IMG/VR virus record: IMGVR_UViG_3300045988_046576
Coordinates: 1-30,953 of that record
Direction: 5' to 3' (one strand)
Length of the DNA stretch: 30,953 bases
DNA from: a virus
The notes beneath the pieces are model-generated. The model did not search any database, was not told the DNA's origin, and saw only the letters and a program-made list of their open reading frames with translations. Within the stretch, counting starts at the first letter, position 1. Each line of letters opens with the position of its first letter. Below are positions 814 through 30,953 of this stretch, in pieces. Position numbers and translations under genes: made by a program.

Positions 814-815
814 AA

Positions 816-986
816 TTAAATAGTTGTTGCGTTTGGAATTTCTTCATCTAAGTCTTCCCATTCTAATACTGGGCGTATTTCAACATCCTTTTTATACTCT
901 CTTGCAATGTTTTCAAGATAAACAATTCTGTACTCAAGTTTTTCGATTCTATCGAATAGTTCATTAATTCTTTCTTTATCAGTCAT
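816..986 (-). CDS. hypothetical small protein (56 aa)
   Basis: Minus strand, MTDKERINELFDRIEKLEYRIVYLENIAREYKKDVEIRPVLEWEDLDEEIPNATTI. It is coiled-coil-like, its Trp is TGG, and a 2-nt gap separates it from neighbours. Confidence 0.4.
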   Translation of the reverse strand: MTDKERINELFDRIEKLEYRIVYLENIAREYKKDVEIRPVLEWEDLDEEIPNATTI

Positions 987-988
987 AA

Positions 989-1156
989 TTAGTCATTTTT
1001 AGAATAAAATTTATAATCTCTTTGGCTTAAAATCTTTTTAATTGCAGCATCCATTTTGCTGCTTTCTTTTTTATGGTATTCCATCCATATATCCAGTTCT
1101 TTTAAGAAGAGGTCTGAATCCCTCAGAACCTCTTCTATCGTTTTCTTTGTTTCCAT
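989..1156 (-). CDS. hypothetical small protein (55 aa)
   Basis: Minus strand, METKKTIEEVLRDSDLFLKELDIWMEYHKKESSKMDAAIKKILSQRDYKFYSKND. Trp is TGG and the stop is TAA 991-989. Confidence 0.4.
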   Translation of the reverse strand: METKKTIEEVLRDSDLFLKELDIWMEYHKKESSKMDAAIKKILSQRDYKFYSKND

Positions 1157-1178
1157 ATGCAAATATAATAATTATATT

Positions 1179-2906
1179 TTAATTTTCCAAATTAAATACG
1201 AATTTTTTATTTAAAATTACATAACCTTCTACTTGTTTGCCTTCAATTCTTTTTTGGCACTTTTTAACGTCATAGTATTTGTCAATCTCAGTAGCTTTAG
1301 GAGCTGTAGTAATTCCTGCAACAGTATAAGCATCTTTTATATACTTCTTAATATCAGCATTAGAATACCACATTCCAAGGCTTAAATGCTCATTTAATTT
1401 CTTTGCAGCTTTGTTATCTGTAGATTTATTAGAAGCTTTGAGTAATTCATCTTTAATTGCGCTAATGCAATACTTTAAACTTGCCATTTTCTCAAATCCG
1501 AGCTTTGTAATAGCATCCATTAACCAAGGATATTTAATCTTAGCGTTATCTAAGATAGGAGTTGCAAATCTATACTTTACTTCCCATTCAGCTCTAATAT
1601 CTTTAATAAGCTCTTTAAATGGTTTGGTATCTGAATCAAAGTCAATCTTAATTGAATTATCCTCGCATTCTACAACCTTTTTAAAGCCATTCTTTAAATA
1701 CTCATTGTTAAGATTAGTTCTAATTGAATATAAACCTCTTGTAACCTTGAAGTTAAATATATCAACTTTAGCCATATTAGGATCAAACGTAAAGGTATAA
1801 TCGTCATTTACTTGAATATAAGTATCACTGGTAAACTCTTTAAGTTTCTTTCTTGCAACTTCTGGCATTGCATTATAAGCCTCAACTGCAATTTTAGTCT
1901 CTTCGATATTCTGGAGATTCTTCTTTCTAAAATCCTCATAAGATACCTCAGCGTATCTTGTTGCAGAATATAAGTGAGTAATCCAATTTAAATACTTACT
2001 ATTTCTAATTCTACCAGCAATCTGCTGAATTGAAGTTGAAATATCAAGTAATGTCTGAGCTTTCTGAGCATCCGAAACTACTACAATACGTCCATTTTCA
2101 TCATAAATATCAGAACCTTCAAATACTGTAGAAGTTAATAAGTTAATCTTTTTAGGTTCATCTAATACAGTAGAGTTCTTAATTGTAAGTTTAGTCTTGT
2201 TATTCTTTGAATAAATAACTCTTGTATTTGATTCATTTAATTTGGCCTTCTGAATAAGGTTCTTTATAAAGTCAACTGAGTTAACAAAGATATATATATT
2301 ACCTTCAACCTGATTGTTTAAAACTGCAGTTATAAGCTTAATAGTTGAAGCCTCAACATTCTTACATTTAACAGCCTGAACTTTAGTCTCTATAACATCA
2401 TCCCATTCTTGTTTTACTAATGGAAGATCTTTTAATTCATCAAGTACAAACTCTTCTTCAAGTGGAGTTGCAGTCATAAAAGTATACTCTTTAAAGAGCT
2501 TATAGTTATCAAGTACAGGTTTAATAGCATCCTTTCTAAAGCTATACTGATTAAAAAGAATATGATACTCATCTACTAATAAACTATAGTCTTTAGGATT
2601 AACTGCCGAAATAACTTTTGGTAAAGAGTTATAAGTAACAATGATTTTAGGGCAATTAACTCGTTTTACATAATCTTTAATCTCTGCAATCGTTACTCCA
2701 GCAAATACACCGAAGATCTCTTCTGTACGTCTTTCATTAGGATACTGTTGAATCTTGTTCTCAACTAAACTGGTAAAAGGAACACAAATAACATAAGGCT
2801 TGTTACATTCAATAGCCATAGAAGTTCCACCACAACCAACTTTTCCTTTGTCAAATAAGCAATTTACAGGTAATTCATCAATAATGTTATTTAAATACGT
2901 TTTCAT
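1179..2906 (-). CDS. superfamily-2 (DExH-type) helicase, 575 aa
   Basis: Intact ORF in the standard code. It has a P-loop-like GKVGCGGTS, motif II LLVDEYH, motif III MTAT and motif VI QIAGRIRN. All 5 Trp codons are TGG, with no in-frame TGA. Confidence 0.7.
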   Translation of the reverse strand: MKTYLNNIIDELPVNCLFDKGKVGCGGTSMAIECNKPYVICVPFTSLVENKIQQYPNERRTEEIFGVFAGVTIAEIKDYVKRVNCPKIIVTYNSLPKVISAVNPKDYSLLVDEYHILFNQYSFRKDAIKPVLDNYKLFKEYTFMTATPLEEEFVLDELKDLPLVKQEWDDVIETKVQAVKCKNVEASTIKLITAVLNNQVEGNIYIFVNSVDFIKNLIQKAKLNESNTRVIYSKNNKTKLTIKNSTVLDEPKKINLLTSTVFEGSDIYDENGRIVVVSDAQKAQTLLDISTSIQQIAGRIRNSKYLNWITHLYSATRYAEVSYEDFRKKNLQNIEETKIAVEAYNAMPEVARKKLKEFTSDTYIQVNDDYTFTFDPNMAKVDIFNFKVTRGLYSIRTNLNNEYLKNGFKKVVECEDNSIKIDFDSDTKPFKELIKDIRAEWEVKYRFATPILDNAKIKYPWLMDAITKLGFEKMASLKYCISAIKDELLKASNKSTDNKAAKKLNEHLSLGMWYSNADIKKYIKDAYTVAGITTAPKATEIDKYYDVKKCQKRIEGKQVEGYVILNKKFVFNLEN

Positions 2907-2942
2907 AATTTAATAAATTTTAAAGGTTAATAATTTAAAGTT

Positions 2943-2985
2943 TTTTATTTTTCTTAATACAAAATGTGAGAAAAAAACTTGACAT
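2943..2985 (+). promoter_or_regulatory. conserved 43-nt bipartite motif, copy A
   Basis: TTTTATTTTTCTTA-N9-GTGAGAAAAAAACTTGACAT. It has the same 14+9+20 architecture as copies at 8285, 17820 and 25147. This copy lies between two minus-strand genes. Confidence 0.6.
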
Positions 2986-2988
2986 CAA

Positions 2989-3019
2989 CTGCCAAAAAGT
3001 GGCAGGACTTTCACCTGCC
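2989..3019 (-). terminator. overlapping hairpins, likely attenuating terminator after the 65-aa leftward gene
   Basis: The hairpins are CTGCCA(2989-2994)/TGGCAG(3000-3005) and GGCAGG(3001-3006)/CCTGCC(3014-3019). They share GGCAG, so they are mutually exclusive. On the minus strand the second hairpin is followed by ACTTTTTGG. Confidence 0.4.
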
Positions 3020-3028
3020 TGGAAGTAG

Positions 3029-3226
3029 TTAAAAAGAAATATTAAAAAATCCAAAAAATGAAGATTTTGATTTCTTAGCTTTCTCAGCCTCTTCATTTTC
3101 TTTAATTTCATCTAAGGCTTCTTCGCATAGAGTTTGAGCCTTTTCAAGAGCTCCTTCTTCAGTAACTTTACCGTTTACTATATCAAGGAAATATTCTAAC
3201 GCTTCAATTTGTTTTTCAGTATTCAT
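3029..3226 (-). CDS. small acidic early protein (65 aa)
   Basis: ORF track entry. It has 15 D/E versus 8 K (net about -7) and a hydrophobic C-terminus SSFFGFFNISF. It is the first gene downstream of two tandem host-type promoters. Confidence 0.55.
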   Translation of the reverse strand: MNTEKQIEALEYFLDIVNGKVTEEGALEKAQTLCEEALDEIKENEEAEKAKKSKSSFFGFFNISF

Positions 3227-4463: not shown

Positions 4464-4704
4464 CATAGACGATATTATGGCGGAATACGATTTAGACTTT
4501 AGTATATTTACAGAGATGAATGATAGATTAATTGAAGTATATCCAAAATGGACATCTCTAAATAAAGCCGATAAAACAGTTATGGTATTATATGCCGAAT
4601 ATCAAAGTTATAGAGAAGTTGGAAAGATACTTGGAATTAGTCATACAACCATAGCAAGGGTAATAGCTAACATTAGAAATAAAATATGTGGAAGGATATG
4701 TTAG
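4435..4704 (+). CDS. sigma-70 region-4-like HTH protein (89 aa)
   Basis: LNKADKTVMVLYAEYQSYREVGKILGISHTTIARVIANIRNKI is a classic region-4 / LuxR-type HTH. The frame differs from 4161..4463 and overlaps it by 29 nt. The start is chosen at ATG 4435 (the track uses TTG 4417). Confidence 0.55.
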   Translation: MKKTMQKKINIDDIMAEYDLDFSIFTEMNDRLIEVYPKWTSLNKADKTVMVLYAEYQSYREVGKILGISHTTIARVIANIRNKICGRIC

Positions 4705-5252
4705 AAGAATGGAAACAATACAAGGATTTTCCTTTTGAAGTAAGTACTCTTGGTAGAGTTAGAACTATGCAAAGGGTAGTCAAATATAAGGATGGCAGAG
4801 AATATAATTACTCAAGTAAGATTATAAAACAATACATTACTAGAGAATATAGTTATATTGTGATTTCACTGCATTCCAAAACATATAATTTTAGAGTGCA
4901 TAGATTAGTAGCTGAAACATTTATACCAAATCCAAATAATTTACCTCAAGTAAATCATATTGACGAAAATAAGTTAAACAATAGAGTTGAAAATCTGGAG
5001 TGGTGTACTGCTAAGTATAATTTAAATTATGGCACTCATACTAAGAAAGTTGTTGAAAAATTAACAAATGGCCCACTTGCTAAAAAAGTAGCTCAGTATG
5101 ACTTAGATGGCAACCTAATTAAAGTATGAGATTCTATAAGAGAAATAAAAAGATGCTTGGGATATGATAATGGAACCATTTCCAAGTTTTGTAGGAACAA
5201 AGTAAATTGTAAACATTGTTATGGGTTTATTTGGAAGTATTCTAATAATTAA
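4686..5252 (+). CDS. HNH homing endonuclease (188 aa)
   Basis: It has a NUMOD4-like N-terminus (FEVSTLGRVRT), an HNH_3-like [37 protein letters not shown], and an IENR1-like tail ending GFIWKYSNN. The TGA at 5127-5129 is read through and the stop is TAA 5250-5252. Confidence 0.8.
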
Positions 5253-5274
5253 TACTGTTATAGTTATATATACT

Positions 5275-5553
5275 ATGTCAGGATTTGATATTCCTATAAG
5301 GAAAAGATTATGAAATTACTTATATAGAGGATTACCATTTAATGAAGATTGGATGATTAAGCCTTGGGTGTGTAGTTGGTGTTTAGGCACCTGAATTGGT
5401 ATAATTAGTTTATTTTGATTTGGGTTTAGTTTGCCGAACTTATTATTAGTATTGCTAGTTGCATACTATAACGACTTAATTAAAGATATTATGATATTAT
5501 TAAAAGATCTATTTAATAAGCTAATAGATTTGATTTATAAAGTCATTAACTAA
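5275..5553 (+). CDS. small membrane protein, DUF1360-like CxxC-W motif (92 aa)
   Basis: MSGFDIPIRKRLWNYLYRGLPFNEDWMIKPWVCSWCLGTWIGIISLFWFGF... contains 3 TGA and 3 TGG Trp codons. It is invisible in the standard-code track. Confidence 0.5.
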
Positions 5554-11046: not shown

Positions 11047-11526
11047 ATGGAAGTATATAAAGACATTAAAGGATATGAGGGACTTTACCAGATAAGTAAT
11101 ACTGGTAAAGTCTTCTCTATAAAAAACAATAAAGAACTGAAGAGTGGATATACTCCAGCTGGATATACAAAAGTTCAATTGTGAAAGAATAAGTCTGGCA
11201 AGTGATTCAATATTCATAGATTAGTTGCAGAAGCGTTTATTCCAAACGTAGAAAACTTACCACAAGTAAATCATATAAATGAGATAAAGGAGGATAATAG
11301 GGTTGATAATTTAGAATGATGTACAGCTCAATATAATGTTACTTATGGAAATAGATTAAATAATAATAAAAAACCTGTAATACAGGAAAGCTTAGATGGC
11401 ACTTTTATAAAGAGATGAAATTCAATTGCTGATACTAAAAAATATGGGTTTGTTCCCCAAAATATAGTACAGTGTTGTATTGGTAATATTTCACAACATA
11501 AAGGATATATTTGAAAATATGCGTAA
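11047..11526 (+). CDS. HNH homing endonuclease (159 aa)
   Basis: [24 protein letters not shown]... (NUMOD4-like) is followed by [37 protein letters not shown] and a tail ending GYIWKYA. All 5 Trp codons are TGA. It overlaps the next gene by 8 nt. Confidence 0.8.
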
Positions 11527-17941: not shown

Positions 17942-18475
17942 ATGGAAAATATGTATAAAATTTATATGCACAAAAGTCCATCTGGTAATATTTATATTGG
18001 ACAGACTAAAACCTCAACTAATAGAAGATGACAAAATGGCAATGGATATAAAAGTTGCTATGTTTTTAATAGAGCTATACATAAATATGGTTGGGATAAT
18101 TTTGAGCATAAAATATTATATAAAGGTTTATCTCAAATAGAAGCAAATATGATTGAGGAAGATCTTATTTATTATTATAAAAGTATTGGGAAATCGTATA
18201 ATATTAAAGATGGGACTACCTTATCAGTAGATATGTGCAACAAGATTTCCAAAACATCAAAAGGAAAACATCGCTCTCCTAATACAGAATTTAAGAAAGG
18301 GCATTCTTTAAACAGTAAAACGGTAGAACAATATACTTTAGATGGGCACCTTATTAAGGTCTGGAATTCTGCAAGTGAAGCTAGTAGACAATGTAATATT
18401 TGTAGGAGTGGAATTTGTAGAGCTTGTAGAGGTATTACACAAACTTATAAAAACTATATGTGAAAATATGCTTAA
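17942..18475 (+). CDS. GIY-YIG homing endonuclease (177 aa)
   Basis: KIYMHKSPSGNIYIGQT...RRWQNG..GYK...AIHKYGWDNFEH...YNIKDG. The tail has an IENR1-like motif ending YMWKYA. It has 2 in-frame TGAs and overlaps the next gene by 8 nt. Confidence 0.85.
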
Positions 18476-19049
18476 TTTACCTATATTTTATTGTGAAATA
18501 ATAGATTCTGATGAGGGATTAAAAGCTATTTCGTTTGTAGAACATCCTGCTAATGAATCTGATTTTATATGTTTTAGTGAACAAGAAGAACTAAAATTTG
18601 AAATTCAAGATGAAGAGCAGAAAATTGTATCTGGAGTTATAATGCAACCAGATAAACCTATTTACAGACGAGATCCTGATGGCAGAGAATATTATGTAGT
18701 CTTTAGTAAAGACACAATATTTAAAATGGCAGAAAAATTCTTTAGAGATAGTATGCAAAACAATATCACTGCAGATCATAATCGCTTTGTTGATGGAATT
18801 AATTTAGTTGAGATGTTTATAAAGGATTCTTCTAAAGGTATAATTCCAAATTACGTTGATTGTCCCGATGGGACCCTTATGGGAACGTACAAAGTAAATA
18901 ATGAAGAAATATGGCAATCTATCAAAAAAGGATCATTCAAAGGTTTTTCTATCGAGGGTTTATTTACTCTCGAAAGAAAAACTGATGAATATACAGAACT
19001 TAAAGAGATACAAAGAATGTTGAAGAAGATAAAACGAATTAAAAAGTAA
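18468..19049 (+). CDS. XkdF-like putative prohead serine protease (193 aa)
   Basis: ...KIVSGVIMQPDKPIYRRD...FSKDTIFKMAEKFFRD...ADHNRFVDGINLVEMFI...EEIWQSIKKGSFKGFSIEG matches the XkdF family pattern by eye. It sits upstream of the scaffold and capsid genes. Confidence 0.5.
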   Translation: MLNLPIFYCEIIDSDEGLKAISFVEHPANESDFICFSEQEELKFEIQDEEQKIVSGVIMQPDKPIYRRDPDGREYYVVFSKDTIFKMAEKFFRDSMQNNITADHNRFVDGINLVEMFIKDSSKGIIPNYVDCPDGTLMGTYKVNNEEIWQSIKKGSFKGFSIEGLFTLERKTDEYTELKEIQRMLKKIKRIKK

Positions 19050-19052
19050 ACT

Positions 19053-19664
19053 ATGAGCAAATTCACTAAAATCAAATTAGAGCTTGCCAAAATGTTGGCA
19101 AAATTCAGTGACATCAAAACTGACAAAGCCGTCTTAACTTGGGATTCTGACGAAGATCTTAAAGCTGGAATGGATGTTTATGTAATGGATGAGAATGGCG
19201 AATACGCTCCTGCTGCTGATGGTGATTATGTTACCGAAGATGGTAAAACTATTGTAGTTAAGGAAGGTCGCGTTGAATCGATTACTGATCCTAAAGCTGA
19301 AGTAGATCCAGAGGAAGGAATGAGCACTGTTGAGGTAGCTGCTGCTTGCGGAACTAAGAAAGTAAACGCTGCTGAGGAAGAAGTTGCAGATCCTATGGTT
19401 CAAACCGATGGTGTTAAAGAAAGTGAAACCGATGCCATTGATGCAATTCATAGAGAAATTAATGAGCTTTATGACATTGTAGACAAACTTACAAAGAAGG
19501 TTGCCGAGCTTGAAGCAAAAGGAACTGAAACAAAAGAGACTGTTGAGAAAATGAGCAAAATGAGTGCTGCTTTCTCTGCAGAAGAAGAGATTGAAACAAA
19601 GCGTACTACTCCTACAAGTGGCAATGCAGAAATAGATAGAAAGCTTAAAAACTTTATTGGTTAA
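19053..19664 (+). CDS. scaffolding protein (203 aa)
   Basis: Acidic, low-complexity protein with a C-terminal coiled coil (IDAIHREINELYDIVDKLTKKVAELEAKG). It lies between the protease and the capsid gene. Confidence 0.55.
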   Translation: MSKFTKIKLELAKMLAKFSDIKTDKAVLTWDSDEDLKAGMDVYVMDENGEYAPAADGDYVTEDGKTIVVKEGRVESITDPKAEVDPEEGMSTVEVAAACGTKKVNAAEEEVADPMVQTDGVKESETDAIDAIHREINELYDIVDKLTKKVAELEAKGTETKETVEKMSKMSAAFSAEEEIETKRTTPTSGNAEIDRKLKNFIG

Positions 19665-19685
19665 TAATTTAAAACGTATACAATT

Positions 19686-20591
19686 ATGGCAAATAGTCCT
19701 GTAATGACTTCTTTGACTGCTTATGTTGAGCAGCGTAGATTACCTCTTATTAAAGAGGCTGTATTAAAAGCTAAGAGTGCTAGTTTATTTAACTTACAGA
19801 CTGATATCAAAACTTCAGCTGCTCTTAACTTACTTTCAACTGATGTTGAATTTGGAGATGGTCTGACTTGTGGATGGGATGAGGCTGGAACGCAGACTCT
19901 TTCACAACGAGTTCTTACGACTGGAAATATCAAGATTAATATGGCTTATTGCGACAAAGCTATGCTTAAATATTGGACTCAGTATCAGGTTCGCGTTGCT
20001 GCTGGTCAGAAAACGCTTCCTTTCGAAGAGGACTTTATTAGTGGTGTAGTTGAGAATGTTAAAGCCGCTATTGAAACCGCTATCTGGCAAGGTGATACTA
20101 CTTCTCAGACTAATAACCTGAAGTACTTTGATGGTCTGTTAAAGATCTTAAAAGATGCTGATGGTACTGTTGATGTAACGATTGCTGGTACTTCTGCTTA
20201 CGACGACGTTATGAAGGTTTATAATGCTATTCCTGAGAAAGTACTTGATGGCGCTTCTATCTTAGTAGGTGCTGATACCTTCCGTAAATTCGTCCAGGAG
20301 TTAGTTGCTAAGAACTACTTCCACTATAGTGGTGAGAACCTTAACGGTGAGATTATGCTTCCTGGTTCGCAGGTTAAAGTAATCGCTGTTAATGGTCTTA
20401 ATGGAACTGACAAGATCGTTGCTGGTCAGCTTGACAAGAACTTCTTCTATGGCTGCGATATGATGAATGACGAAGAGAAATTCGAAATGTGGTATTCGCA
20501 GGATTTCAGAGAATTTAGATTAGCTATTGAATTTAACGCTGGTGTACAGGTTGCATTCCCTGACGAAGTAGTATTAGGTGCTAAAGCTTAA
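19686..20591 (+). CDS. major capsid protein, HK97 fold (301 aa)
   Basis: Size, position after the scaffold and sequence character (…ETAIWQGDTT…FDGLLKIL…FYGCDMMNDEEKFEMWYSQDFREFRLAIEFNAGVQV) support the call. It has the richest GC and codon bias in the window. All 4 Trp codons are TGG. Confidence 0.75.
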   Translation: MANSPVMTSLTAYVEQRRLPLIKEAVLKAKSASLFNLQTDIKTSAALNLLSTDVEFGDGLTCGWDEAGTQTLSQRVLTTGNIKINMAYCDKAMLKYWTQYQVRVAAGQKTLPFEEDFISGVVENVKAAIETAIWQGDTTSQTNNLKYFDGLLKILKDADGTVDVTIAGTSAYDDVMKVYNAIPEKVLDGASILVGADTFRKFVQELVAKNYFHYSGENLNGEIMLPGSQVKVIAVNGLNGTDKIVAGQLDKNFFYGCDMMNDEEKFEMWYSQDFREFRLAIEFNAGVQVAFPDEVVLGAKA

Positions 20592-20631
20592 TTTCAATAG
20601 AAATGTTTAACTTTAAATAGTAATTGAAATT

Positions 20632-21150
20632 ATGGCTTGCTTAATAACGCTTAATGGAATTACACTTGATTGCCAGCCTTCGTTAGGTGGTATCAAACGA
20701 GTTTGGATTACTCAATATTCAGATGTAAAATCTGTAGTTGTAGGTGAGGACAATATGATTGAAAGTATCACTTTAGAGGGTGAAGCTCAATGGTATGAGT
20801 ATCAGTTCCGTAAGGCTACTGGTTCTTTAACCTCAACTCTGAATGTTGACGAATCCGCAGGAGTTAACTATGTAAGTAATGAGTTAGCTCTTGTATTTAC
20901 AAAGATGGAAACTGCTAAGAGAATTGAAATTGCAGCTTTATCGATCGGTCAGCTTGCAGTTGTTGTTGAGGATAGTAATGGTCATTACTGGTTCCTTGGT
21001 AAAGATGATTATGTAAGCGCTTCTGCAGGTACTGGTATTACTGGTACAGCAAAAGGTGATCAGAATGCTTATACTCTGACTCTCTCTACTGATTCGGATT
21101 CTTATCCTTATGAGTTGTCAGCAGAAGCTATTGCTGCAATAGTTGGATAA
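20632..21150 (+). CDS. putative major tail (tube) protein or other abundant virion protein (172 aa)
   Basis: It is co-oriented with and compositionally similar to the capsid gene, and a strong terminator follows. It appears beta-rich by eye. No in-frame TGA. Confidence 0.35.
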   Translation: MACLITLNGITLDCQPSLGGIKRVWITQYSDVKSVVVGEDNMIESITLEGEAQWYEYQFRKATGSLTSTLNVDESAGVNYVSNELALVFTKMETAKRIEIAALSIGQLAVVVEDSNGHYWFLGKDDYVSASAGTGITGTAKGDQNAYTLTLSTDSDSYPYELSAEAIAAIVG

Positions 21151-21157
21151 TCAGATT

Positions 21158-21195
21158 AAGAGCGGGTAATTAATTTACTCGCTCTTATTTTGTTT
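21158..21195 (+). terminator. rho-independent terminator after the head genes
   Basis: A 12-bp stem AAGAGCGGGTAA (21158-21169) / TTACTCGCTCTT (21175-21186), with 1 G-U and a 5-nt loop, is followed by ATTTTGTTT. Confidence 0.75.
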
Positions 21196-21224
21196 ATAGA
21201 CATTAATAATAAAAATTATATAAT

Positions 21225-22526
21225 ATGGCAATTAAATTTACAACACAACCTGTTGCAAAGAATGCAACTTCGAGAGGTTTAGATATCCTAAGTGCTGCAG
21301 AATGCAAACTTCAGGATAAGACAGTTGAATATGTAGAAAATTCACAATATGAAATATTACCAGATGAAGGATATGATGGAATAGCAAAGGTTGACGTAAC
21401 AGTAAATGTACCAATTCCAGAACCTAAATTACAGAGCAAGAATTATAACATTGTAACTAATGGAGATACGACTATTACTCCTGATGCAGGTTTTGTTGGA
21501 ATTAATGGAGGTACTATTAGTGTAAACGTTCCTACTCCAGAGCCTAATTTACAAGAGAAATCTACGACTATTAGTCAGAATGGTGCTTCTAGTGTTACTC
21601 CAGATTCTGGCTATGATGGTCTTTCTAGAGTAGATATTACTGTACAAGTTCCAGAACAGACTATACAAGCTAACAAGACTGTATCTATTACAACTAACGG
21701 ACAGACTATTGTATCCCCTGATCCAAATAATGATGGTATGGCTCAAGTAACTGTAGATGTTAATGTATCTGGAGGTGGAAGTATAGATGTAGTTGATAAC
21801 GGAATTAAATTCGCTTATTCTACATTTACAGAAGTACCAGATACATTTACTGGATGGGATGAATTAGAGGACGGAAGTCGTATGTTTTATAACTGTAAAA
21901 ACTTAACTTCTTTTGATAAAGATGTTTCTAATTGTACAAATATAGATTATATGTTTTCGAACTCTGGAATTACTTCTTATAATTATAATTTTCCTTTGGT
22001 TACAAACCCTACTCAAACATTTACATATTCAAAATTACAATCTATTACAGGAGATTTAACTAATTTAACTGATCAAACTCAGTTTTTTGGATATAGTGAT
22101 TTAGTATCTTTTAATTTGGATACTCCAAATATAACTGATACACTTGAGATGTTTATAAATTGTGATTCGATGAAATCTTGTACCGCTAATATAAGTAAAG
22201 TAACTATAGCAAGTTATATGTTCCAATATTGTAGAGCTTTAACAGATTTAACTTTAACTGTAGATTCTGAGTTTACCACTAGTAATATGTTCTATTTTTG
22301 CACCAATTTAAAAAATGTAACAATTAAAGGAACTTTAAATGCTTCTTCATTAGATTTCTCACCTTCTTCTGTTTTAACAGTTGACAGTATGATGAATATA
22401 ATAAATGCTCTTGCTGATTTAACTGGACAAGATTCCAAAAAGATTATTTTTGGAACTTCTTTATTAAATAAATTATCTGAAGAACAAAAAGCTGTAGCTA
22501 CAAATAAAAACTGGGTATTAGCATAA
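21225..22526 (+). CDS. BspA-type leucine-rich-repeat protein with N-terminal tandem repeats (433 aa)
   Basis: There are four approximately 37-40-aa repeats (…PDxGYDGxxxVxVxVxVPxPEPxLQxK…). These are followed by repeated MF.nC..L units (MFYNCKNLTS, MFSNSGITS, MFINCDSMKS, MFQYCRALTDL, MFYFCTNLKNV) typical of BspA/DUF285-type LRRs. Confidence 0.65.
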   Translation: MAIKFTTQPVAKNATSRGLDILSAAECKLQDKTVEYVENSQYEILPDEGYDGIAKVDVTVNVPIPEPKLQSKNYNIVTNGDTTITPDAGFVGINGGTISVNVPTPEPNLQEKSTTISQNGASSVTPDSGYDGLSRVDITVQVPEQTIQANKTVSITTNGQTIVSPDPNNDGMAQVTVDVNVSGGGSIDVVDNGIKFAYSTFTEVPDTFTGWDELEDGSRMFYNCKNLTSFDKDVSNCTNIDYMFSNSGITSYNYNFPLVTNPTQTFTYSKLQSITGDLTNLTDQTQFFGYSDLVSFNLDTPNITDTLEMFINCDSMKSCTANISKVTIASYMFQYCRALTDLTLTVDSEFTTSNMFYFCTNLKNVTIKGTLNASSLDFSPSSVLTVDSMMNIINALADLTGQDSKKIIFGTSLLNKLSEEQKAVATNKNWVLA

Positions 22527-22540
22527 TAAATAACATAATT

Positions 22541-22777
22541 ATGAAAATTACAACAAATGATCAATTAAAGTTTAAGGTACTAGAAGCTGAGGAAGGGAAG
22601 ATTATTACTAATTATAAGGAATCTGATCCAATTGAAGAATATAGTGCTTCTACTATTATGTACTGTCCAAAAGATTTGGATATTAGTGCATATTATGAGA
22701 TAGATCTAAGTAAACATCAGCAATATGTTGATTTACAGACACAAAAGATTGAAGAGAAATTAAAACTTGAAGAATAA
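22541..22777 (+). CDS. hypothetical protein (78 aa)
   Basis: ORF track entry. A TAATG overlap couples it to the tail fibre gene. Confidence 0.45.
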   Translation: MKITTNDQLKFKVLEAEEGKIITNYKESDPIEEYSASTIMYCPKDLDISAYYEIDLSKHQQYVDLQTQKIEEKLKLEE

Positions 22778-25146: not shown

Positions 25147-25189
25147 TTTTATTTTTATTATAACTTAAAGTGAGTAAAAAACTTGACAT
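25147..25189 (+). promoter_or_regulatory. conserved 43-nt bipartite motif, copy D
   Basis: TTTTATTTTTATTA-N9-GTGAGTAAAAAACTTGACAT. A 9-bp hairpin (25191-25199 / 25204-25212) and a T-rich tract follow immediately. Confidence 0.6.
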
Positions 25190-25288
25190 TAAGGGAGACA
25201 TTTGTCTCCTTTAATTTTATTACTTTATCTAAAGTATTTATATTTTAGAAAAAAGATATGTAAAATTAATGTAAAACTATTGCAAATT

Positions 25289-25681
25289 ATGTATTACACT
25301 CTATTAATTCAGAATACTGTGAGTAAAGAAGTATATACATATAATTTGGAGAATTTAAATTATGACGAAAATATTTATTATAAGTTTAATATTGTGCTGG
25401 ATGATAATACACCTGACGGAGAATACCAATATTTGTTATTTGAGAATCCAAATCAAATTGAAGTTGTAGTAAACTATAACAACGTCTATGATAGCAAGTT
25501 ATATGGAGATACTAAAATATTAGTAACGTTTACTAATACACTTACTAATGGAACTCAGATATTAATTGCTGGTAAGCCTATTATGTGACTATCTAGTGGA
25601 TTAATAAGAATAGGAGACTATAAATCTAACAATTATCAATATAACAAACAAAACAAATACCAAGTATATGACAGAAAATAA
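25289..25681 (+). CDS. hypothetical protein (130 aa)
   Basis: The start is moved to ATG 25289 (MYYTLLIQ...). The TGA at 25586-25588 is read through to TAA 25679-25681. Confidence 0.45.
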
Positions 25682-26351
25682 GAAAAGTTTGAAGTCAGGT
25701 ACGATTAAAAGAAATTATACTGGAGTAATATATTTAATTCACTCTAAGATAACAGGAAAAATGTATATAGGGCAGACTTGCAGATCATTTAATACGAGAT
25801 GAAGGCAACACTGTAATGAGAGCTTTAATGAAAATTCAAAAAGTTATAATCATCATTTTCATAAAGCTATAAGGTTATATGGAACAGATAATTGAGATTA
25901 TAAAATACTTAAAATATTTTCCTGCTCTTCAAAAGAATTACTAAAGAAACAGTTAAATATTTCTGAAGTTGAATATATAACTTTATATGATACATTTAAA
26001 AATGGATATAATTCGACTTTAGGAGGGGAGGGAACTATAGGAAAAGATCCCTGAAATAAGGGTAAAAAAGGAGTGCAACAATGCAATGAAGAGACTCGAA
26101 AAAAGATGAGTGCATCTAGATCTGGAGAAAAGAATGGTATGTATGGAAGACACCGAACCGAAGAAGAGAAGGAAAATCTACGGAAAAGGTGAAGTAAACC
26201 CGTAAACCAATTAGATTTAGACGGTAACTTTATTAAGAGATGAAATTCTTGTAAAGAAGCACAACAAAGTGGTTATAAAAATATTTATAGTGTACTTTAT
26301 GGAAAAAATAAACAATGTAAAGGGTTTAAATGAGAATGGGCCCAAAAATAA
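25668..26351 (+). CDS. GIY-YIG homing endonuclease (227 aa)
   Basis: GVIYLIHSKITGKMYIGQT...RWRQH...YGTDNWDYKIL...NGYNSTLGGEG, with NUMOD3-like NEETRKKMSASRSGEKNGMYGRHRTEEEKENLRKRW and an IENR1-like tail GFKWEWAQK. Six of 7 Trp codons are TGA. Confidence 0.85.
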
Positions 26352-26358
26352 AATAAAG

Positions 26359-27396
26359 ATGTCGGCACTAGATCCATATATTGTAAGTAACATAGTAGAG
26401 CCTACAGAAAGTAAGAAAAGAGGATCAGATATGATAATATGAGGCGATAATAATCGCTATCCTATTTACTTATGGGATCTATATTTAAACTGTGCAACAT
26501 TACAGTCAATTATCAACGGAACTGCCGATTTTATCGTTGGAGACGATGTTATTTGTAATAAAGAGGGATTTAACGTAGTTGTTAATAAGAAAGGCGAAAC
26601 AATAGTAGACATCTTTAGAAAGATAGCAATAGATAAGATGATTTTTGGAGGATATGCTGTTCAAGTAATTAGAAATATGGTTGGAGAAGTTAGTGAGATT
26701 TATCACTTAGACTTTATGAAGGTCCGTTCTAATGAAAAGAATACTGTTCTTTATTATGCAGATGATTGGGAGGCTTGGTCAGTTAAGGCTTTAACTTATC
26801 CTAAATATGAGATAAATGATAGTGCTCCCGCTTCTGTAGTTTATAATAAAGGCTATGTAACAAGAAGTGTATATCCAATTCCAGTTTATGGAGCTGCTCT
26901 ATTAAGTTGCGAAACTGAGAAGTGCATTAATCAATTCCATTTAAATAATCTTAATAATGGATTTATGAGTAATGTTATTATTAACTTTAATAATGGAACT
27001 CCTACAGATGAAGCACAAGAAGAGATTGAACGTAATATTAACGAGAAGTTCTCTGGATACCAAAATACTGGACGTATTCTTATTTCTTATAATGATTCAG
27101 ATGTAAATAAGACTACTGTTGAAAGACTTGATTCTGATGATTTTGATGAACGATATGAATCATTAGCAACTAGAACAAGAGAGCAAATATTCTGCGCTTT
27201 TAGAGCTAATCCTGTGTTGTTCGGTATTAATTATGCTTCTGGATTCTCAAAACAAGAGTATCAGCAAGCATTTGATTTATATAATCGAACTATGGTGCAG
27301 CCAATACAAAAAGATATTTGTAAAAGTTTCGATACTATCTTTGGAATGAAAAATTCTGTTACAGTGGTACCTTTTAGTATGAATTGAAATGAATAA
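26359..27396 (+). CDS. portal protein (345 aa)
   Basis: ...IIWGDNNRYPIYLWDLYLNCATLQSIINGTADFIVGDDV... and downstream blocks resemble the Phage_portal family by eye. It has 2 in-frame TGAs. Stop is TAA 27394-27396. Confidence 0.6.
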
Positions 27397-27982
27397 TTAT
27401 ACTGTTTATTGCCATATTAATAAATATAATAATAAAATTTATATAGGTATTACTGGACAAGATCCTAAAAAACGTTGAGGAAATGGGAAAGGTTATAAAA
27501 ATTCCTTTTTCTTTAATGCAATACAAAAATATGGCTGAGATAATTTCGAGCATAAAATCCTGTATACTAATTTATCTAAATTAGATGCAGAGCTTATAGA
27601 AATAGATTTAATACATTATTATAAATCTATTAATAAAAGCTATAATATTGCTAATGGAGGTAATGTTACTACAGGATTGAAGATGTCAGAAAAAGCGAGA
27701 AAAAACATATCACAAGGGCATATAGGACTTAAAAGAAGTGATTCGTTTAAAGAGAAGATAAGAGTTGCTAATAAAAATCGTTCTGATGAAATAAAAAGAA
27801 AACTGATAGATAGCAATAAACGTCCTATAATTCAGCTATCATTAGATGGAGTCTTTATAAAAGAATATGAGAGTATTAAAGATGCAGAGTTACAATTAGG
27901 TATATGCCATCAAAATATATCTAAATGTTGTAAAAACATCTATAAAACTGCTGGAGGATATAAATGACAGTATAAACAGTAA
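27389..27982 (+). CDS. GIY-YIG homing endonuclease (197 aa)
   Basis: YTVYCHINKYNNKIYIGITGQDPKKRWGNGKGYK...AIQKYGWDNFEHKIL...YNIANGG, with an IENR1-like tail ending GGYKWQYKQ. All 3 Trp codons are TGA. It overlaps the portal stop by 8 nt. Confidence 0.85.
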
Positions 27983-27993
27983 AATTATTTATT

Positions 27994-28647
27994 ATGGAAT
28001 ATAGAAACGTATTACTTATATCGGAAGATTACATTAAGTCAGAAAGCAATTTAGATAACAACATTTCTGGCAAATATCTTCAAAGTGCTATTAAACTAGC
28101 ACAAGACATAGAACTGCAGTCTTTAATTGGAACTAAGCTATTAGAGGCATTACAAAAGAAATGTATTGACTGAGTAGATCCAAGTGTTGAAGATGCAGTT
28201 GCAGATTCAATAGATGATCCAGATAATATTAAGTATAAAGAACTATTAGATTACTATGTTACTCCATTCTTGTTATTTCAAGTATTGTCAGAAGTAATCG
28301 TTCCTATTACTTATAAGCTAAGTAATTTTGGAGTTATGAGAACTGATGATGAGAAAGATATAGCTGCAGATGCAAGTCAAGTTAATCTATTACGTAAATA
28401 TTACAAAGATAAAGCAGATTTCTTTAAAGCAAGATTACAAGATTGGGTTATTACATATTATAATGATTTTCCTGAATTATATTCATATAAACCATTAAAA
28501 GATATGTATCCTAATTTATATAGCGCAAGTAGCTGCGGTATTTGGTTAGGTGGTGCTAGAGGTAAGGGATTTTATACTAATCCAAATATAGGACCTTTAC
28601 AGAGAGCTTATGATTTCCCAAGTTCAAATAACAATAAAAAGAAATAG
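27994..28647 (+). CDS. putative head-tail connector / head completion protein (217 aa)
   Basis: MEYRNVLLISEDYIKSESNLDNNISGKYLQSAIKLAQDIELQSLIGTKLLEAL... resembles gp6-like connector N-termini by eye. One TGA (IDWVD). Confidence 0.35.
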
Positions 28648-28648
28648 T

Positions 28649-29074
28649 ATGACATATTATGAAATAATCAATGGGCTAAAAGAATCTGCTCTTATGGAGC
28701 CTAATATTAATTTCGCTGGCAGTAAAGATATCTATGAGTTAAATAGCCTTCCTAATATAGATTATAATGTATTCTATATAACTCCAAATACATTTAATCT
28801 TGATGAAGATACTATTACATACTCATTGAATCTTTACTATGTTGCCAGATGAGATGAAACAGACGAGAATCAACTTGAAGAACAGTCTGCTGGAATTTTA
28901 GCTCTTACAAATATAATTAACCGATTTAATAACATCTATCCTGATGTTCAATTATCTTACCCTTTAATATTTACTCCATTTTATCAAAAGTTCAAAGATA
29001 TATGTACTGGAATATTTGTAAGAGTAGATATAATGGTAGATAATGTATTAGGAGTTTGTACAGAGACTATGTAA
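28649..29074 (+). CDS. hypothetical virion-module protein (141 aa)
   Basis: The start is moved to ATG 28649 (MTYYEIING...). The TGA at 28850-28852 is read through, and TAA 29072-29074 overlaps the next ATG (TAATG). Confidence 0.45.
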
Positions 29075-29730
29075 TGGAAAACAAATTAAAATGATTCGGA
29101 CAGGTACTTGATTGAGTTAATAAATACGGGTTATGACAGATTATAAAAGGCGGATTTGCATTTATATTTGTATCTTATGTCTTTATAATCTCTCTAAATC
29201 CAGGCATTATATATGATAAGGTTGCTACTTACATAGAAAATGTCCATAACGTTAAGCAAGTAACCAGACAAGATGCAGACATCAAAATACGTTACATCTT
29301 GAAAGATTTAAGAGTATCTACAAATGCAGATAGAGCTTGAGTTATTGAATACCATAATGGTACATCTGGATTAGGAGGACTTCCATTTACATACGGAATT
29401 ATGAATAACGAAGAATTAGAAGAAGGAGTGTGTTCAGTATCTAGACATTATAGAGACTTCTTGTTATCTGAGTATTTGTTTATTTTGGAGACTTCTAAAC
29501 AAGGTGGATGAATAGGTAGTGTTGAGGATATAAAACAGTATGATACAAAAATGTACTATTCGTTTAAATCTAATGGTATTAATAAATTAGCTTTATTTTA
29601 TTTAAAATCGGAAGATAGAGATATTGGAGTAGTCGGCCTTTCATATTGTGATAATGAGATGCCAGAAGATACTTGAGTTAAATTAAGAGATGCAGGAATA
29701 AAGATAAGCATAATTTTAAATAAAAAGTAA
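29074..29730 (+). CDS. N-terminally membrane-anchored protein, possible sensor (GAF-like) domain; lysis-cassette associated (218 aa)
   Basis: This gene is completely invisible in the standard-code track. All six Trp codons are TGA. It has a TM segment GGFAFIFVSYVFIISL, and the soluble part ...ADRAWVIEYHNGTSGLGGLPF...DIGVVGLSY... is weakly GAF-like by eye. Confidence 0.5.
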
Positions 29731-29731
29731 T

Positions 29732-29893
29732 ATGAAGTATTGGGTAAAGTATTTAATCGCAGTTGTGATAATTATTGCAGTTTTGGTATTAGTAAAAGTA
29801 ATTCCTTTCTGGATTACTATGGTATTACTTGCTTTAGCAGTAGGTAGCCATTTATTTTACAGATATCTAACACTTAAAGATATTATAAAATAA
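29732..29893 (+). CDS. putative holin, two TM segments (53 aa)
   Basis: MKYWVKYLIAVVIIIAVLVLVKVIPFWITMVLLALAVGSHLFYRYLTLKDIIK. A TAATG overlap couples it to the endolysin gene. Confidence 0.5.
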   Translation: MKYWVKYLIAVVIIIAVLVLVKVIPFWITMVLLALAVGSHLFYRYLTLKDIIK

Positions 29894-30342
29894 TGAAGTA
29901 TTTTACAGTAGAGGAGTTAACTGAATCATCTACAGCAATTAAGGAAAATATAGACAACACTCCAAGTAAGGAGATCACTGAACACCTAATTGAGTTAATA
30001 GAGGAACTCTTAGACCCTATTAGAGAAAAATGGGCAGAGTATTGTAATATTAATAAACTTGGAAATCCAGCAATAAGTGTAAGTTCAGGTTATAGATGCA
30101 AAGAGCTTAATAAAGCTGTAAATGGTTCAGTTACATCTGCACATATGACGGGTTATGCTGCAGACCTTCAAAATGTCTCTGGAAGTAGAGAAGAGTTTTA
30201 TCAATTCCTATTAAACTTTTTGAAGGATAGAAATTTCGATGAATGTTTTATAGAAAAAAGTCGTACATCTCAATGAGTGCATATTGCTTTATATAGTATT
30301 AAAGGACTACAACGAAGAAAAAAAGGTAATTTGTATGTATAG
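29893..30342 (+). CDS. endolysin, peptidase M15 (VanY / L-Ala-D-Glu peptidase-like), 149 aa
   Basis: It has SGYRCKELNKAV, SAHMTGYAAD and, after reading TGA 30274-30276 as Trp, WVHIA. These are the Zn-binding H/D/H motifs of M15 peptidases. Stop is TAG 30340-30342. Confidence 0.75.
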
Positions 30343-30953
30343 TATCTATGTTCATATAAATAAATTAAATCATAAAATGTATTTTGGGATCACCAAACAA
30401 AATCCAAAAAGACGTTTTAGAGACGGAGAAGGTTATAAAAGTTGTACAAAATTCTACAAAGCAATACAGAAATATGGCTGAGATAATTTCGAGCACATTA
30501 TAATCAAAACAGATATGCCAAAAGAATGTGCAGAGACTTTAGAGAAGATATTAATCTATAAATATGACACCATAAATTCTGGATATAATTTAGATGGCGG
30601 AGGTAATTTACATTTAGCAACTAAAGAAAGTAAAATAAAAAGCTCAGAATCACACAAAGGAAAGAAACTATCACAAAGTACTAAAGATAAACTACGTATT
30701 TCTACTACAGAATTGTGAAAAGACCCTATTTATAGATCTAAATGCCAATCTAAGAAAGGCCGAAACGTTCCTCCAGTAAGTGAAAATACTAAAGAGAAAA
30801 TAAGTGATTCAATTAAAAAACTATGACTTAATGATGAATATGTAAATAAGTGTAAGAAAGGTCTAGAAACATATCATAAAATGCATAGTAAACCAATACG
30901 GGCAATTAATGAAGATGTGGTTTTGGAGTTCGATTCTGTATCTGAAGCTGTAC
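30335..30953 (+). CDS. GIY-YIG homing endonuclease, N-terminal part (3' end cut by window edge)
   Basis: MYSIYVHINKLNHKMYFGITKQNPKRRFRDGEGYK...AIQKYGWDNFEH...SGYNLDGGG, then NUMOD3-like repeats and the start of an IENR1-like motif. Three Trp codons so far, all TGA. Confidence 0.8.

What the first reader, a model, noticed from the sequence alone, without database searches (positions are those of the whole stretch)
29074..30342. Lysis cassette led by a membrane-anchored protein whose six Trp codons are all TGA
Gene 29074-29730 is invisible in the standard code, with TGA at codons 7, 14, 21, 89, 155 and 200 by hand translation and no TGG at all. It has one N-terminal TM helix and a soluble domain that looks weakly GAF/sensor-like. 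It is translationally coupled (TAATG junctions on both sides) to upstream virion genes and to a 53-aa two-TM holin candidate (29732-29893). An M15 endolysin follows, and its catalytic WVH motif also needs a TGA.

A first TGA at codon 7 means essentially nothing is made unless TGA suppression is active. That is an obvious way to tie lysis control to the recoding state. A role as antiholin or lysis-timing sensor is speculative.
Basis: inference. Interest (0 to 1): 0.65.

Follow-up and report, generated by a model that had tools for sequence, protein, structure and literature searches.

The report
T4-holin-like lysis protein, TGA-recoded phage
The TGA-riddled gene at 29074-29730 is real and belongs to a large uncharacterised phage family that has the membrane topology and fold of the phage T4 holin T and sits just upstream of cell-wall-degrading enzymes in many phages, so it is probably a holin rather than an antiholin, while its all-TGA tryptophan spelling is not conserved position by position and the recoding-controls-lysis idea is already published.

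Summary
It has one N-terminal TM helix. A conserved 53-aa two-TM ORF and an M15 endolysin follow, and the W of the endolysin's WVH motif is TGA.

The window is a closed 30.9-kb circular phage genome that uses code 4 throughout: 57 TGA against 70 TGG, no gene ends in TGA, and no tRNA was found.

The antiholin reading is not supported; the evidence points to a holin. A high-confidence AlphaFold model (pLDDT 96) shows a cytoplasmic amphipathic helix, a TM helix, a long helix and a GAF-like domain. Reciprocal Foldseek searches link it to T4 holin T. Relatives lie directly upstream of M15, GH19 or DUF5675 wall hydrolases, in some cassettes with a u-spanin-like protein and no other membrane protein.

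In 39 orthologues codon 7 is TGG in 35, so the "first TGA" gate is not conserved. gX as a gene stays TGA-rich across lineages (26/35 against 6/33 in neighbouring virion genes). Preferential recoding of lysis genes was already proposed by Borges et al.

The parts
28649..29074 (+). Upstream 141-aa gene of unknown function. It follows portal (26299-27396) and DUF6712 (27994-28647). Its stop overlaps the gX start as TAATG.
   Evidence: Searches found no family. Searches show conserved synteny. One search shows a 1-nt overlap in most relatives.
29074..29730 (+). gX: a 218-aa single-pass membrane protein read in code 4. Predicted amphipathic cytoplasmic helix at residues 2-18, TM helix 20-41, long helix 44-83 and a GAF-like alpha/beta domain 87-216. 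It is a T4 holin T-like (class III) candidate holin.
   Evidence: AF2 pLDDT 96.4 on a 96%-identical orthologue; Foldseek; topology; family of 797 clusters.
29092..29094 (+). TGA at codon 7 (Trp). It is TGG in 35 of 39 unique orthologues.
29113..29115 (+). TGA at codon 14 (Trp). It is TGA in 25 of 39 orthologues.
29134..29136 (+). TGA at codon 21 (Trp). In orthologues it is TGA in 4, TGG in 15 and Leu in 20.
29338..29340 (+). TGA at codon 89, the W of the conserved ADRAW motif. It is TGA in 21 of 39 orthologues.
29509..29511 (+). TGA at codon 146 (Trp). It is TGA in 21 of 39 orthologues.
29674..29676 (+). TGA at codon 201 (Trp). It is TGA in 38 of 39 orthologues, the only near-fixed TGA in gX.
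29732..29893 (+). 53-aa protein with two TM segments: a class II holin-like candidate or a partner of gX. Both of its Trp codons are TGG in all relatives. It is absent from lineage L008.
29893..30342 (+). Peptidase_M15_3 endolysin of 149 aa with no signal sequence or TM segment. It has an H-x6-D motif and a QWVH motif.
30274..30276 (+). TGA at codon 128 of the endolysin, the W of QWVH. It is TGA in 33 of 35 unique orthologues.
30335..30953 (+). GIY-YIG homing endonuclease gene overlapping the endolysin stop. It runs over the window end and continues at 1-332, so the window is a closed circle.

Best explanation
The window is a complete 30.9-kb circular genome of a phage that reads TGA as tryptophan throughout. 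Its host is probably a Bacteroidota bacterium.

Gene 29074-29730 (gX) encodes a single-pass inner-membrane protein oriented N-in/C-out. It has a short amphipathic cytoplasmic helix and a large GAF-like domain outside the cytoplasmic membrane. This is the architecture and fold of the class III holin T of phage T4.

gX belongs to a large uncharacterised family that occupies the holin slot directly upstream of unrelated endolysin types. The most likely mechanism, which is inferred, is this: gX accumulates in the membrane late in infection and forms or controls the lesion through which the signal-less M15 endolysin reaches the wall. The external domain would serve as an oligomerisation or regulatory module. 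The conserved 53-aa two-TM protein is then a co-holin or a modulator of gX.

The six TGA codons reflect genome-wide code-4 usage. In addition there is a gene-level tendency, repeated across lineages, for gX to tolerate or prefer TGA. That fits low or late expression of a lethal protein. It is not a position-specific gate at codon 7.

Shown: the sequence features, the fold, the topology bias, the synteny and the codon statistics. Inferred: holin activity, the role of the 53-aa protein and any regulatory use of TGA.
For: Code 4:
- TGA alternates with TGG at conserved Trp columns in orthologues.
- None of the 36 genes with a stop codon in the window ends in TGA.

Fold:
- The AF2 model has pLDDT 96.4.
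- The best PDB matches are GAF domains, E 2e-7, TM-score 0.76 on the target.
- BFVD matches include 'Holin' of Proteus phage phiP4-3 (1.4e-5), 'Class III holin' of Proteus phage Stubb (3.5e-5) and 'T holin lysis mediator' of Serratia phage PS2 (9.4e-4).
- An AF2 model of a T4-type T holin has the same order of secondary-structure elements.
- That T model, searched back, retrieves the same uncharacterised 'GAF domain-containing' phage proteins that head the gX list.
- hhalign of the two family profiles is colinear over 198 columns, E 2.6e-4, probability 42%.

Topology: net charge is +1.1 before the TM and -0.5 after it, with 85 of 112 members favouring N-in against 7.

Synteny, with homologues directly upstream of a wall hydrolase:
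- M15 in the window clade and in Nonlabens phage P12024S.
- DUF5675 with a YkuD-like motif in L056-type and L064 phages.
- GH19 in L069 and L070.
- L056 and L069 cassettes read gX-homologue, endolysin, then a lipoprotein with a C-terminal TM (u-spanin-like), with no other membrane protein nearby.
- Lineage L008 keeps gX and M15 but lacks the 53-aa ORF.

Codons: gX has 26/35 TGA across 7 lineages, against 6/33 in portal, DUF6712 and g141.
Against: - There is no sequence-level membership in Phage_holin_T (PF11031). No hit was found at E<=1, and the profile-profile probability is only 42%.
- The residues conserved in the gX family (H58, R65, R87, E92, H94, N95, E113, D157) differ from those conserved in T.
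- The window has a canonical-looking small two-TM protein overlapping the endolysin start. It could be the real holin, which would leave gX as a regulator.
- Some relatives also carry small multi-TM proteins nearby: L070, L066, L064 and Nonlabens gene 14.
- Some family members are not next to a recognisable lysin, for example Microcystis phage Ma-LMM01 gp021 and L066/L068/L072.
- L008 is an incomplete contig, so a holin could lie elsewhere in that genome.
- The structure was modelled on a 96%-identical orthologue, not on the window protein itself.
- No functional data exist.
Confidence: 0.55

Rival explanations
1. The 53-aa two-TM protein is the holin. gX is an antiholin or lysis-timing sensor that binds it and delays triggering until its GAF-like domain receives a signal.
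For: - The 53-aa ORF has holin-like size and two TM segments, overlaps the endolysin start, and is conserved in 40/41 relatives.
- GAF folds are typically ligand sensors.
- The family has near-invariant polar residues (H58, R65, R87, E92, H94, N95, E113, D157), which suggests a binding site.
- L070 also pairs a 70-aa two-TM protein with the homologue.
Against: - Cassettes in L056-type phages and L069 have the homologue, an endolysin and a u-spanin-like protein but no small TM protein.
- L008 lacks the 53-aa ORF.
Confidence: 0.25
2. The TGA content of gX is an adaptive gate. Inefficient or late-activated TGA decoding keeps this lethal protein off until late infection, which ties lysis to the recoding state.
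For: - gX is TGA-rich in all 7 lineages, at 26/35 against 6/33 in neighbouring virion genes.
- Codon 201 of gX and codon 128 of the endolysin are TGA in 38/39 and 33/35 orthologues.
- In some lineages (L027-L036) TGA in this locus is found almost only in gX and M15.
- The minus-strand presumed early genes have 0 TGA against 7 TGG.
- The same pattern and hypothesis were reported for other recoded phages.
Against: - Codon 7 is TGG in 35/39 orthologues.
- TGA occurs in about 24 of the 37 genes listed, including terminase and portal.
- The 53-aa membrane protein never uses TGA.
- 28% of conserved Lys/Glu/Gln columns are also at least 85% A-ending across lineages, so a near-fixed TGA is not exceptional.
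- Per-gene TGA share tracks the general A-ending share (rho 0.43, p 0.04).
- No suppressor tRNA or other switch was found in the complete genome.
Confidence: 0.3
3. The all-TGA spelling has no function. TGA is a mildly disfavoured synonymous Trp codon in an AT-rich code-4 genome. Weakly expressed genes such as gX and the homing endonucleases drift to the mutational equilibrium, while highly expressed genes keep TGG.
For: - A-ending share of K/E/Q codons is 0.66-0.69, so P(6/6) is about 0.09.
- The capsid-module block 18342-22777 has 0 TGA against 11 TGG and also prefers G-ending codons.
- Homing endonuclease genes are 5/0, 6/1, 5/2 and 3/0.
- TGA and TGG interchange freely among orthologues.
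Against: - The contrast between gX and the adjacent, presumably also low-abundance 53-aa protein (0 TGA) is not explained.
- The gene-level excess is repeated in all lineages.
- Expression levels are unknown.
Confidence: 0.45
4. gX is not a lysis protein. It is a membrane sensor, a superinfection-exclusion factor, or a morphogenesis or virion-associated protein that merely sits at the end of the late operon.
For: - The gene follows portal, DUF6712 and a 141-aa gene with an overlapping stop and start.
- Some homologues are not next to lysins: Ma-LMM01 gp021, and a 372-aa cellular-looking version beside housekeeping genes in L073.
Against: - Adjacency to three unrelated wall-hydrolase families in independent phage groups.
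- Structural match to T4 holin T.
- No match in PADLOC.
Confidence: 0.1

Closest known systems
Phage T4 holin T (gpt), class III / IIIa holin, Pfam PF11031 Phage_holin_T
   Same: - Same length, 218 aa.
- Short cytoplasmic N-terminus with an amphipathic helix, one N-in/C-out TM helix, a long helix, then an alpha/beta domain beyond the membrane.
- Same order of secondary-structure elements.
- Reciprocal Foldseek similarity.
- Colinear but weak profile-profile alignment.
- Placed next to an endolysin in many relatives.
   Different: - No sequence-level match to PF11031.
- Different conserved residues.
- Found in small code-4 and other Bacteroidota-type phages, not in T4-like or T5-like phages. 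A 2026 paper states that class III holins were confined to those two groups (PMC12894885).
- No RI or RIII antiholin homologues were looked for or seen.
- Accompanied here by a 53-aa two-TM protein.
- Holin activity is untested.
GAF domains (cyanobacteriochrome and phytochrome GAF domains, GAF_2 PF13185)
   Same: Best solved-structure matches, with E down to 2e-7 and TM-score about 0.75 normalised on the target. 4 of 112 family members touch GAF_2 weakly.
   Different: - The window protein has no sequence match.
- It lacks the conserved cysteine context of bilin binders.
- It is membrane-anchored with no output domain.
- Any ligand is unknown.
Preferential stop-codon recoding of lysis genes in alternatively coded gut phages (Borges et al., preprint 10.1101/2021.08.26.457843)
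   Same: - TGA to Trp recoding in a low-GC phage.
- A presumed early module free of TGA.
- A TM-domain protein of the lysis cassette and the homing endonucleases are the most TGA-biased genes.
   Different: - No suppressor tRNA, tRNA synthetase or release factor gene was found in this complete 31-kb genome.
- TGA is spread over most genes.
- The statistical excess in gX is modest.
- The gene family is different.
Class II holins and pinholins (two TM segments, for example S21 of phage 21), as comparators for the 53-aa ORF
   Same: Small size, two hydrophobic segments, a charged C-terminal tail, and a position immediately upstream of and overlapping the endolysin.
   Different: - No family match in Pfam, PHROGs or NCBIfam.
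- The loop between the two segments is essentially one lysine.
- Function is untested.
- It is missing in lineage L008.

Membership tests
Phage_holin_T (PF11031) / class III holin | Sequence match to the family profile | tested here: not met
   hmmscan of gX against Pfam-A found no PF11031 hit at E<=1. T4 T itself scores 1.5e-118.
Phage_holin_T (PF11031) / class III holin | Remote homology by profile-profile comparison | tested here: inconclusive
   hhalign of A2 against A4 gave probability 42%, E 2.6e-4, and 198 colinear columns covering both proteins.
Phage_holin_T (PF11031) / class III holin | One TM domain oriented N-in/C-out, a short cytoplasmic N-terminus and a large periplasmic C-terminal domain | tested here: met
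   Single hydrophobic segment. AF2 helix at 20-41. Positive-inside bias in 85 against 7 of 112 members. This is a prediction only.
Phage_holin_T (PF11031) / class III holin | Fold of the soluble domain like that of T | tested here: met
   Foldseek in both directions between the gX model, the T model and BFVD entries. Matching secondary-structure order.
Phage_holin_T (PF11031) / class III holin | Genetic linkage to an endolysin or lysis cassette | tested here: met
   M15, GH19 or DUF5675 lies directly downstream, or one small gene away in the window clade, in 6 of 10 independent contexts. u-spanin-like genes are present in three of them.
Phage_holin_T (PF11031) / class III holin | Temporally regulated lethality and endolysin release | not testable with these tools
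   Needs expression and complementation assays.
GAF domain superfamily | GAF fold | tested here: met
   The top 50 PDB Foldseek matches are mostly GAF domains, E 2e-7 to 6e-5.
GAF domain superfamily | Sequence match to a GAF profile | tested here: not met
   The window protein has none. 4 of 112 family members hit GAF_2, best E 0.0032, below any gathering score.
GAF domain superfamily | Small-molecule binding in the pocket | not testable with these tools
   Only the near-invariant polar residues are known.
Code-4 (TGA=Trp) recoded phage | In-frame TGA at conserved Trp positions, with TGA not used as a stop | tested here: met
   TGA and TGG alternate at the same columns, with no Gly alternates. 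Stop codons are 31 TAA, 5 TAG and 0 TGA.
Code-4 (TGA=Trp) recoded phage | Phage-encoded suppressor tRNA or other code-change genes | tested here: not met
   ARAGORN found 0 genes. Rfam found no tRNA at E<=1. The genome is complete. Borges et al. found such tRNAs in only 35% of code-4 phages.
Code-4 (TGA=Trp) recoded phage | Lysis genes more recoded than other genes | tested here: inconclusive
   gX 26/35, M15 10/20 and the 53-aa ORF 0/12, against virion neighbours 6/33. Lineages are few and not independent.
Antiholin (RI-like or S107-like) | Binds and inhibits a cognate holin | not testable with these tools
   No sequence signature exists. The architecture differs from RI as described in PMC11413866.
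Peptidase_M15_3 endolysin (29893-30342) | Profile match above the curated cut-off | tested here: met
   60.1 bits against a cut-off of 23.2. phrog_894 endolysin at 7.6e-25.

The most novel reading that the evidence does not exclude
The gX family would be a large, previously unrecognised branch of T4-type (class III) holins, widespread in phages of Bacteroidota and other bacteria. Its external GAF-like domain, with an invariant His/Arg/Glu/His/Asn/Glu/Asp cluster, would sense a periplasmic ligand or a partner protein to set lysis timing. That would be a lysis-inhibition-like sensory holin in gut phages. In this code-4 lineage its expression would be additionally throttled by TGA codons.
Probability: 0.2. 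Interest if true: 0.75.

Novelty: new variant of a known kind. Interest (0 to 1): 0.5.

Why it matters
Holins of Bacteroidota and gut phages are largely unannotated. This family has about 800 clusters at 50% identity and has no name in Pfam, PHROGs, NCBIfam or PADLOC.

[quoted passage not shown] If the gX family works like T, the class becomes far more widespread. Many phage genomes would gain a holin annotation. A GAF-like sensor fold in the holin itself would make signal-dependent lysis timing testable outside the T-even phages.

For recoding biology, the case adds a small, complete code-4 genome with no detectable suppressor tRNA. In it the T-like membrane protein and the homing endonucleases are the most TGA-rich genes. 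That is a further data point for, but not a proof of, the published idea that recoding restrains late lethal genes.

Tried and rejected
- Sequence libraries gave nothing for gX. Pfam returned noise only. PHROGs returned only phrog_30125 of unknown function. NCBIfam and PADLOC returned nothing. A PDB profile search by sequence returned nothing meaningful.
- Megablast of 23 kb of the window against GenBank phages found no match.
- tblastn of the L056 homologue against GenBank phages found no match.
- hhalign of the family profile against the single T4 T sequence was not significant (probability 2%). It became suggestive only with a T-family profile.
- The genome-contig scan with the close alignment A1 found no relative. 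A degenerate motif scan found only 4 loci, so the host was not identified directly.
- The suppressor tRNA search was negative with both ARAGORN and Rfam.
- Code 25 (TGA=Gly) was rejected because the TGA columns alternate with TGG, Leu, Val, Ile and Phe, and never with Gly.
- A cell-wall-less code-4 host (Mycoplasma-type) was rejected. The phage carries a peptidoglycan peptidase, and 34 of 36 gene starts lack a Shine-Dalgarno core, which fits Bacteroidota.
- A special meaning for the near-fixed TGA at gX codon 201 and M15 codon 128 was tested against conserved Lys/Glu/Gln columns and is not exceptional.
- The promoter and terminator scan around the cassette gave nothing beyond one terminator-like hairpin at 25188-25215.
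- The 575-aa early protein was examined as a possible code-switch factor. It shows only a weak helicase-like signal.
Full report
**Observation**

Read with TGA as tryptophan, window 29074-29730 is one open frame of 218 codons. TGA is at codons 7, 14, 21, 89, 146 and 201, and there is no TGG. In the standard code no usable fragment exists.

The protein, called gX here, has a single hydrophobic segment at about residues 22-46. The upstream 141-aa gene ends in TAATG, overlapping the gX start. A 53-aa ORF (29732-29893) starts one base after the gX stop, as TAA-T-ATG, and itself ends in TAATG, overlapping the next gene. That next gene (29893-30342) is a Peptidase_M15_3 endolysin (Pfam E 2.8e-16; phrog_894 endolysin E 7.6e-25). 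The W of its QWVH motif is TGA.

**The genome**

The last ORF of the window runs over the end and continues in frame at position 1, so the 30,953 bases form a closed circle. Orthologous contigs are 30-31.5 kb.

In the 37 genes called there are 57 in-frame TGA and 70 TGG. Of the 36 genes with a stop codon in the window, none ends in TGA: 31 end in TAA and 5 in TAG. In orthologues TGA alternates with TGG at the same Trp columns and never with Gly codons. The code is therefore code 4.

No tRNA gene was found by ARAGORN or Rfam. Shine-Dalgarno cores precede only 2 of 36 genes, against 12% of random positions. Together with the distribution of relatives, this points to a Bacteroidota host with the standard code. 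How TGA is decoded is unexplained.

**Is six of six more than chance?**

- Against the genome-wide TGA share, the nominal p is 0.008. The chance that some gene with at least five Trp is all-TGA is about 0.10. An HNH homing endonuclease gene (11047-11526) is also 5/0.
- Against the A-ending share of Lys/Glu/Gln codons (0.66-0.69), p is about 0.09.
- Heterogeneity among genes is real (p = 5e-5). A block at 18342-22777 that includes a virion structural protein has 0 TGA against 11 TGG and also prefers G-ending codons. The minus-strand module has 0 against 7. The homing endonucleases are TGA-rich.
- Per-gene TGA share correlates with the general A-ending share (rho 0.43, p 0.04).

**Orthologues**

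Forty-three related loci keep the order portal, DUF6712, 141-aa gene, gX, 53-aa ORF, M15.

Among 39 unique gX sequences:

| Codon | TGA | Other |
|---|---|---|
| 7 | 4 | TGG in 35 |
| 14 | 25 | TGG in 14 |
| 21 | 4 | TGG in 15, Leu in 20 |
| 89 | 21 | TGG in 18 |
| 146 | 21 | TGG in 18 |
| 201 | 38 | TGG in 1 |

At gene level the picture is different. With one representative per lineage (under 90% nucleotide identity), the counts of TGA among Trp codons are:

| Gene | TGA / Trp codons |
|---|---|
| gX | 26/35 |
| portal + DUF6712 + 141-aa gene | 6/33 |
| 53-aa ORF | 0/12 |
| M15 | 10/20 |

Near-fixed TGA at gX codon 201 and M15 codon 128 is not exceptional. 28% of conserved Lys/Glu/Gln columns are also at least 85% A-ending across the same lineages. 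What stands out is that TGG is retained in the neighbours, while gX sits at or above the neutral A-share.

**What gX is**

A profile search of 1.84 billion cluster representatives found 797 relatives at E<=0.001, nearly all 215-290 aa. Near-invariant residues are H58, R65, R87, E92, H94, N95, G96, F105, E113, G148, D157 and G185. No library names the family.

It gave pLDDT 96.4. The model has a helix at 2-18, a TM helix at 20-41, a long helix at 44-83, and then a beta-beta-alpha-beta-alpha-beta-beta-alpha domain.

Fold comparisons:
- Foldseek against the PDB returns mostly GAF domains, E from 2e-7.
- Foldseek against viral models returns phage 'GAF domain-containing' and uncharacterised proteins, E down to 2e-15. 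It also returns T4-type holins: Proteus phage phiP4-3 'Holin' at 1.4e-5, Stubb 'Class III holin' at 3.5e-5, and Serratia PS2 'T holin' at 9.4e-4.
- An AF2 model of a T4-type T holin (pLDDT 83.9) has the same succession of elements, including the last three at almost the same residue numbers.
- Searched back, the T model retrieves, after the T family itself, the same proteins that head the gX list.
- The two family profiles align colinearly over 198 columns (hhalign E 2.6e-4, probability 42%). Pfam's Phage_holin_T does not hit gX.
- The positive-inside rule favours N-in/C-out in 85 of 112 members against 7. That is the topology of T as described in PMC11413866.

**Context in other phages**

| Locus or phage | Arrangement |
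|---|---|
| Nonlabens phage P12024S | homologue lies directly upstream of 'peptidase M15' |
| 60-90 kb standard-code phages (L046-L061) | homologue, then a DUF5675 protein with an L,D-transpeptidase-like HSGN...SAGCILVG motif, then a lipoprotein with a C-terminal TM (u-spanin-like); no other membrane protein within about 2.5 kb |
| L064 | homologue overlaps a DUF5675 gene |
| L069, a temperate element with an integrase | homologue, GH19, u-spanin-like protein, and no other membrane protein |
| L070 | a 70-aa two-TM protein precedes the homologue, then GH19 |
| L008, within the window's own clade | keeps gX and M15 but lacks the 53-aa ORF |

Exceptions exist. Microcystis phage Ma-LMM01 gp021 is not next to a lysin. 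The L066, L068 and Prevotella CAG:1092 type is followed by a DUF6808-like protein. One Clostridium MAG contig carries a longer version beside housekeeping genes.

**Interpretation**

The best-supported reading is that gX is a T-like, class III-type holin or hole-controlling membrane protein of the cassette gX, 53-aa protein, M15 endolysin. The endolysin has no export signal and so needs such a protein. Whether gX or the 53-aa protein forms the hole, or both do, cannot be decided without experiments. I put the holin reading at about 0.55 and the antiholin reading at about 0.25.

The TGA richness of gX is a gene-level tendency. It is compatible both with the published 'recoding restrains lysis genes' hypothesis (Borges et al.) and with relaxed selection in weakly expressed genes. 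It is not a conserved gate at codon 7.

**Comparison with what is known**

The recoding idea is already known. The preprint reports preferential TGA use in a transmembrane lysis-cassette protein and in an intron endonuclease of other code-4 phages, and found suppressor tRNAs in only 35% of code-4 genomes.

The structural link between this unnamed family and T4 holin T appears not to be described in the literature I could search. [quoted passage not shown] I therefore rate the finding as a new variant of a known kind, of moderate interest.

Noticed in passing
window 30335-30953 joined to 1-332: The GIY-YIG homing endonuclease ORF runs off the window end and continues in frame at position 1. The window is therefore a complete, circularly closed phage genome with no terminal repeat.
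   Followed up: yes
window 347-670, 4686-5252, 11047-11526, 17942-18475, 25668-26351, 27233-27982, 30335-332: There are about seven HNH or GIY-YIG homing endonuclease genes in a 31-kb genome. Several are inserted between or overlap structural genes, and their positions differ among relatives. Four of them (11047-11526, 25668-26351, 27233-27982, 30335-332) are among the most TGA-rich genes (5/0, 6/1, 5/2, 3/0).
   Followed up: partly
window 18342-22777 and minus strand 703-3226: Two TGA-free modules. One is a block containing a virion structural protein (0 TGA / 11 TGG, with a G-ending codon preference at 19686-21150). The other is the minus-strand presumed early module, including a 575-aa weakly helicase-like protein (0 / 7).
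   Followed up: partly
whole window: No tRNA, suppressor tRNA, release factor or tRNA synthetase gene was detected in this complete code-4 genome. The mechanism by which TGA is read as Trp in a presumably standard-code host is unexplained.
   Followed up: partly
whole window (gene starts): Shine-Dalgarno cores precede only 2 of 36 genes, fewer than at random positions. This suggests a Bacteroidota-type host.
   Followed up: partly
window 5221-5553: A 110-aa multi-TM protein with a CxxC motif (CSWCLGTW), 3 TGA and 3 TGG. Similar-looking membrane proteins lie a few genes downstream of the gX homologue in L066 (6083-6466) and L071 (3788-4198). A link to lysis was not examined.
   Followed up: no
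L008 10654-10920: One lineage of the window's clade lacks the 53-aa two-TM ORF between gX and the endolysin. In its place is a non-coding stretch with an inverted repeat, followed by an inserted 230-aa gene.
   Followed up: partly
L056 5102-5617; L069 3870-4340; L070 4846-5331: Proteins with a lipoprotein signal peptide (L..C) and a C-terminal TM helix lie downstream of the endolysin. They are candidate unimolecular spanins in Bacteroidota-type phages.
   Followed up: partly
L073 6065-7183: A 372-aa version of the family, with a 160-aa N-terminal extension before the TM helix, lies beside a GAPDH-like gene and an ATPase gene on a contig binned as Clostridium sp. It may be a cellular or domesticated copy, or a binning artefact.
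   Followed up: no
L064 4690-5345: The DUF5675 putative endolysin downstream of the gX homologue is split into two ORFs of 118 and 78 aa. The catalytic GC(I/L)LVG motif is in the second ORF. This could be a frameshift, an intervening element or an assembly error.
   Followed up: no
window 25188-25215: A strong terminator-like hairpin (12-bp stem followed by a T-run) precedes gene 25289. No further convincing terminator-like site (only a weak 6-bp hairpin at 26443-26458) lies between it and the end of the lysis cassette, so the portal-to-endolysin stretch may be one transcription unit.
   Followed up: no
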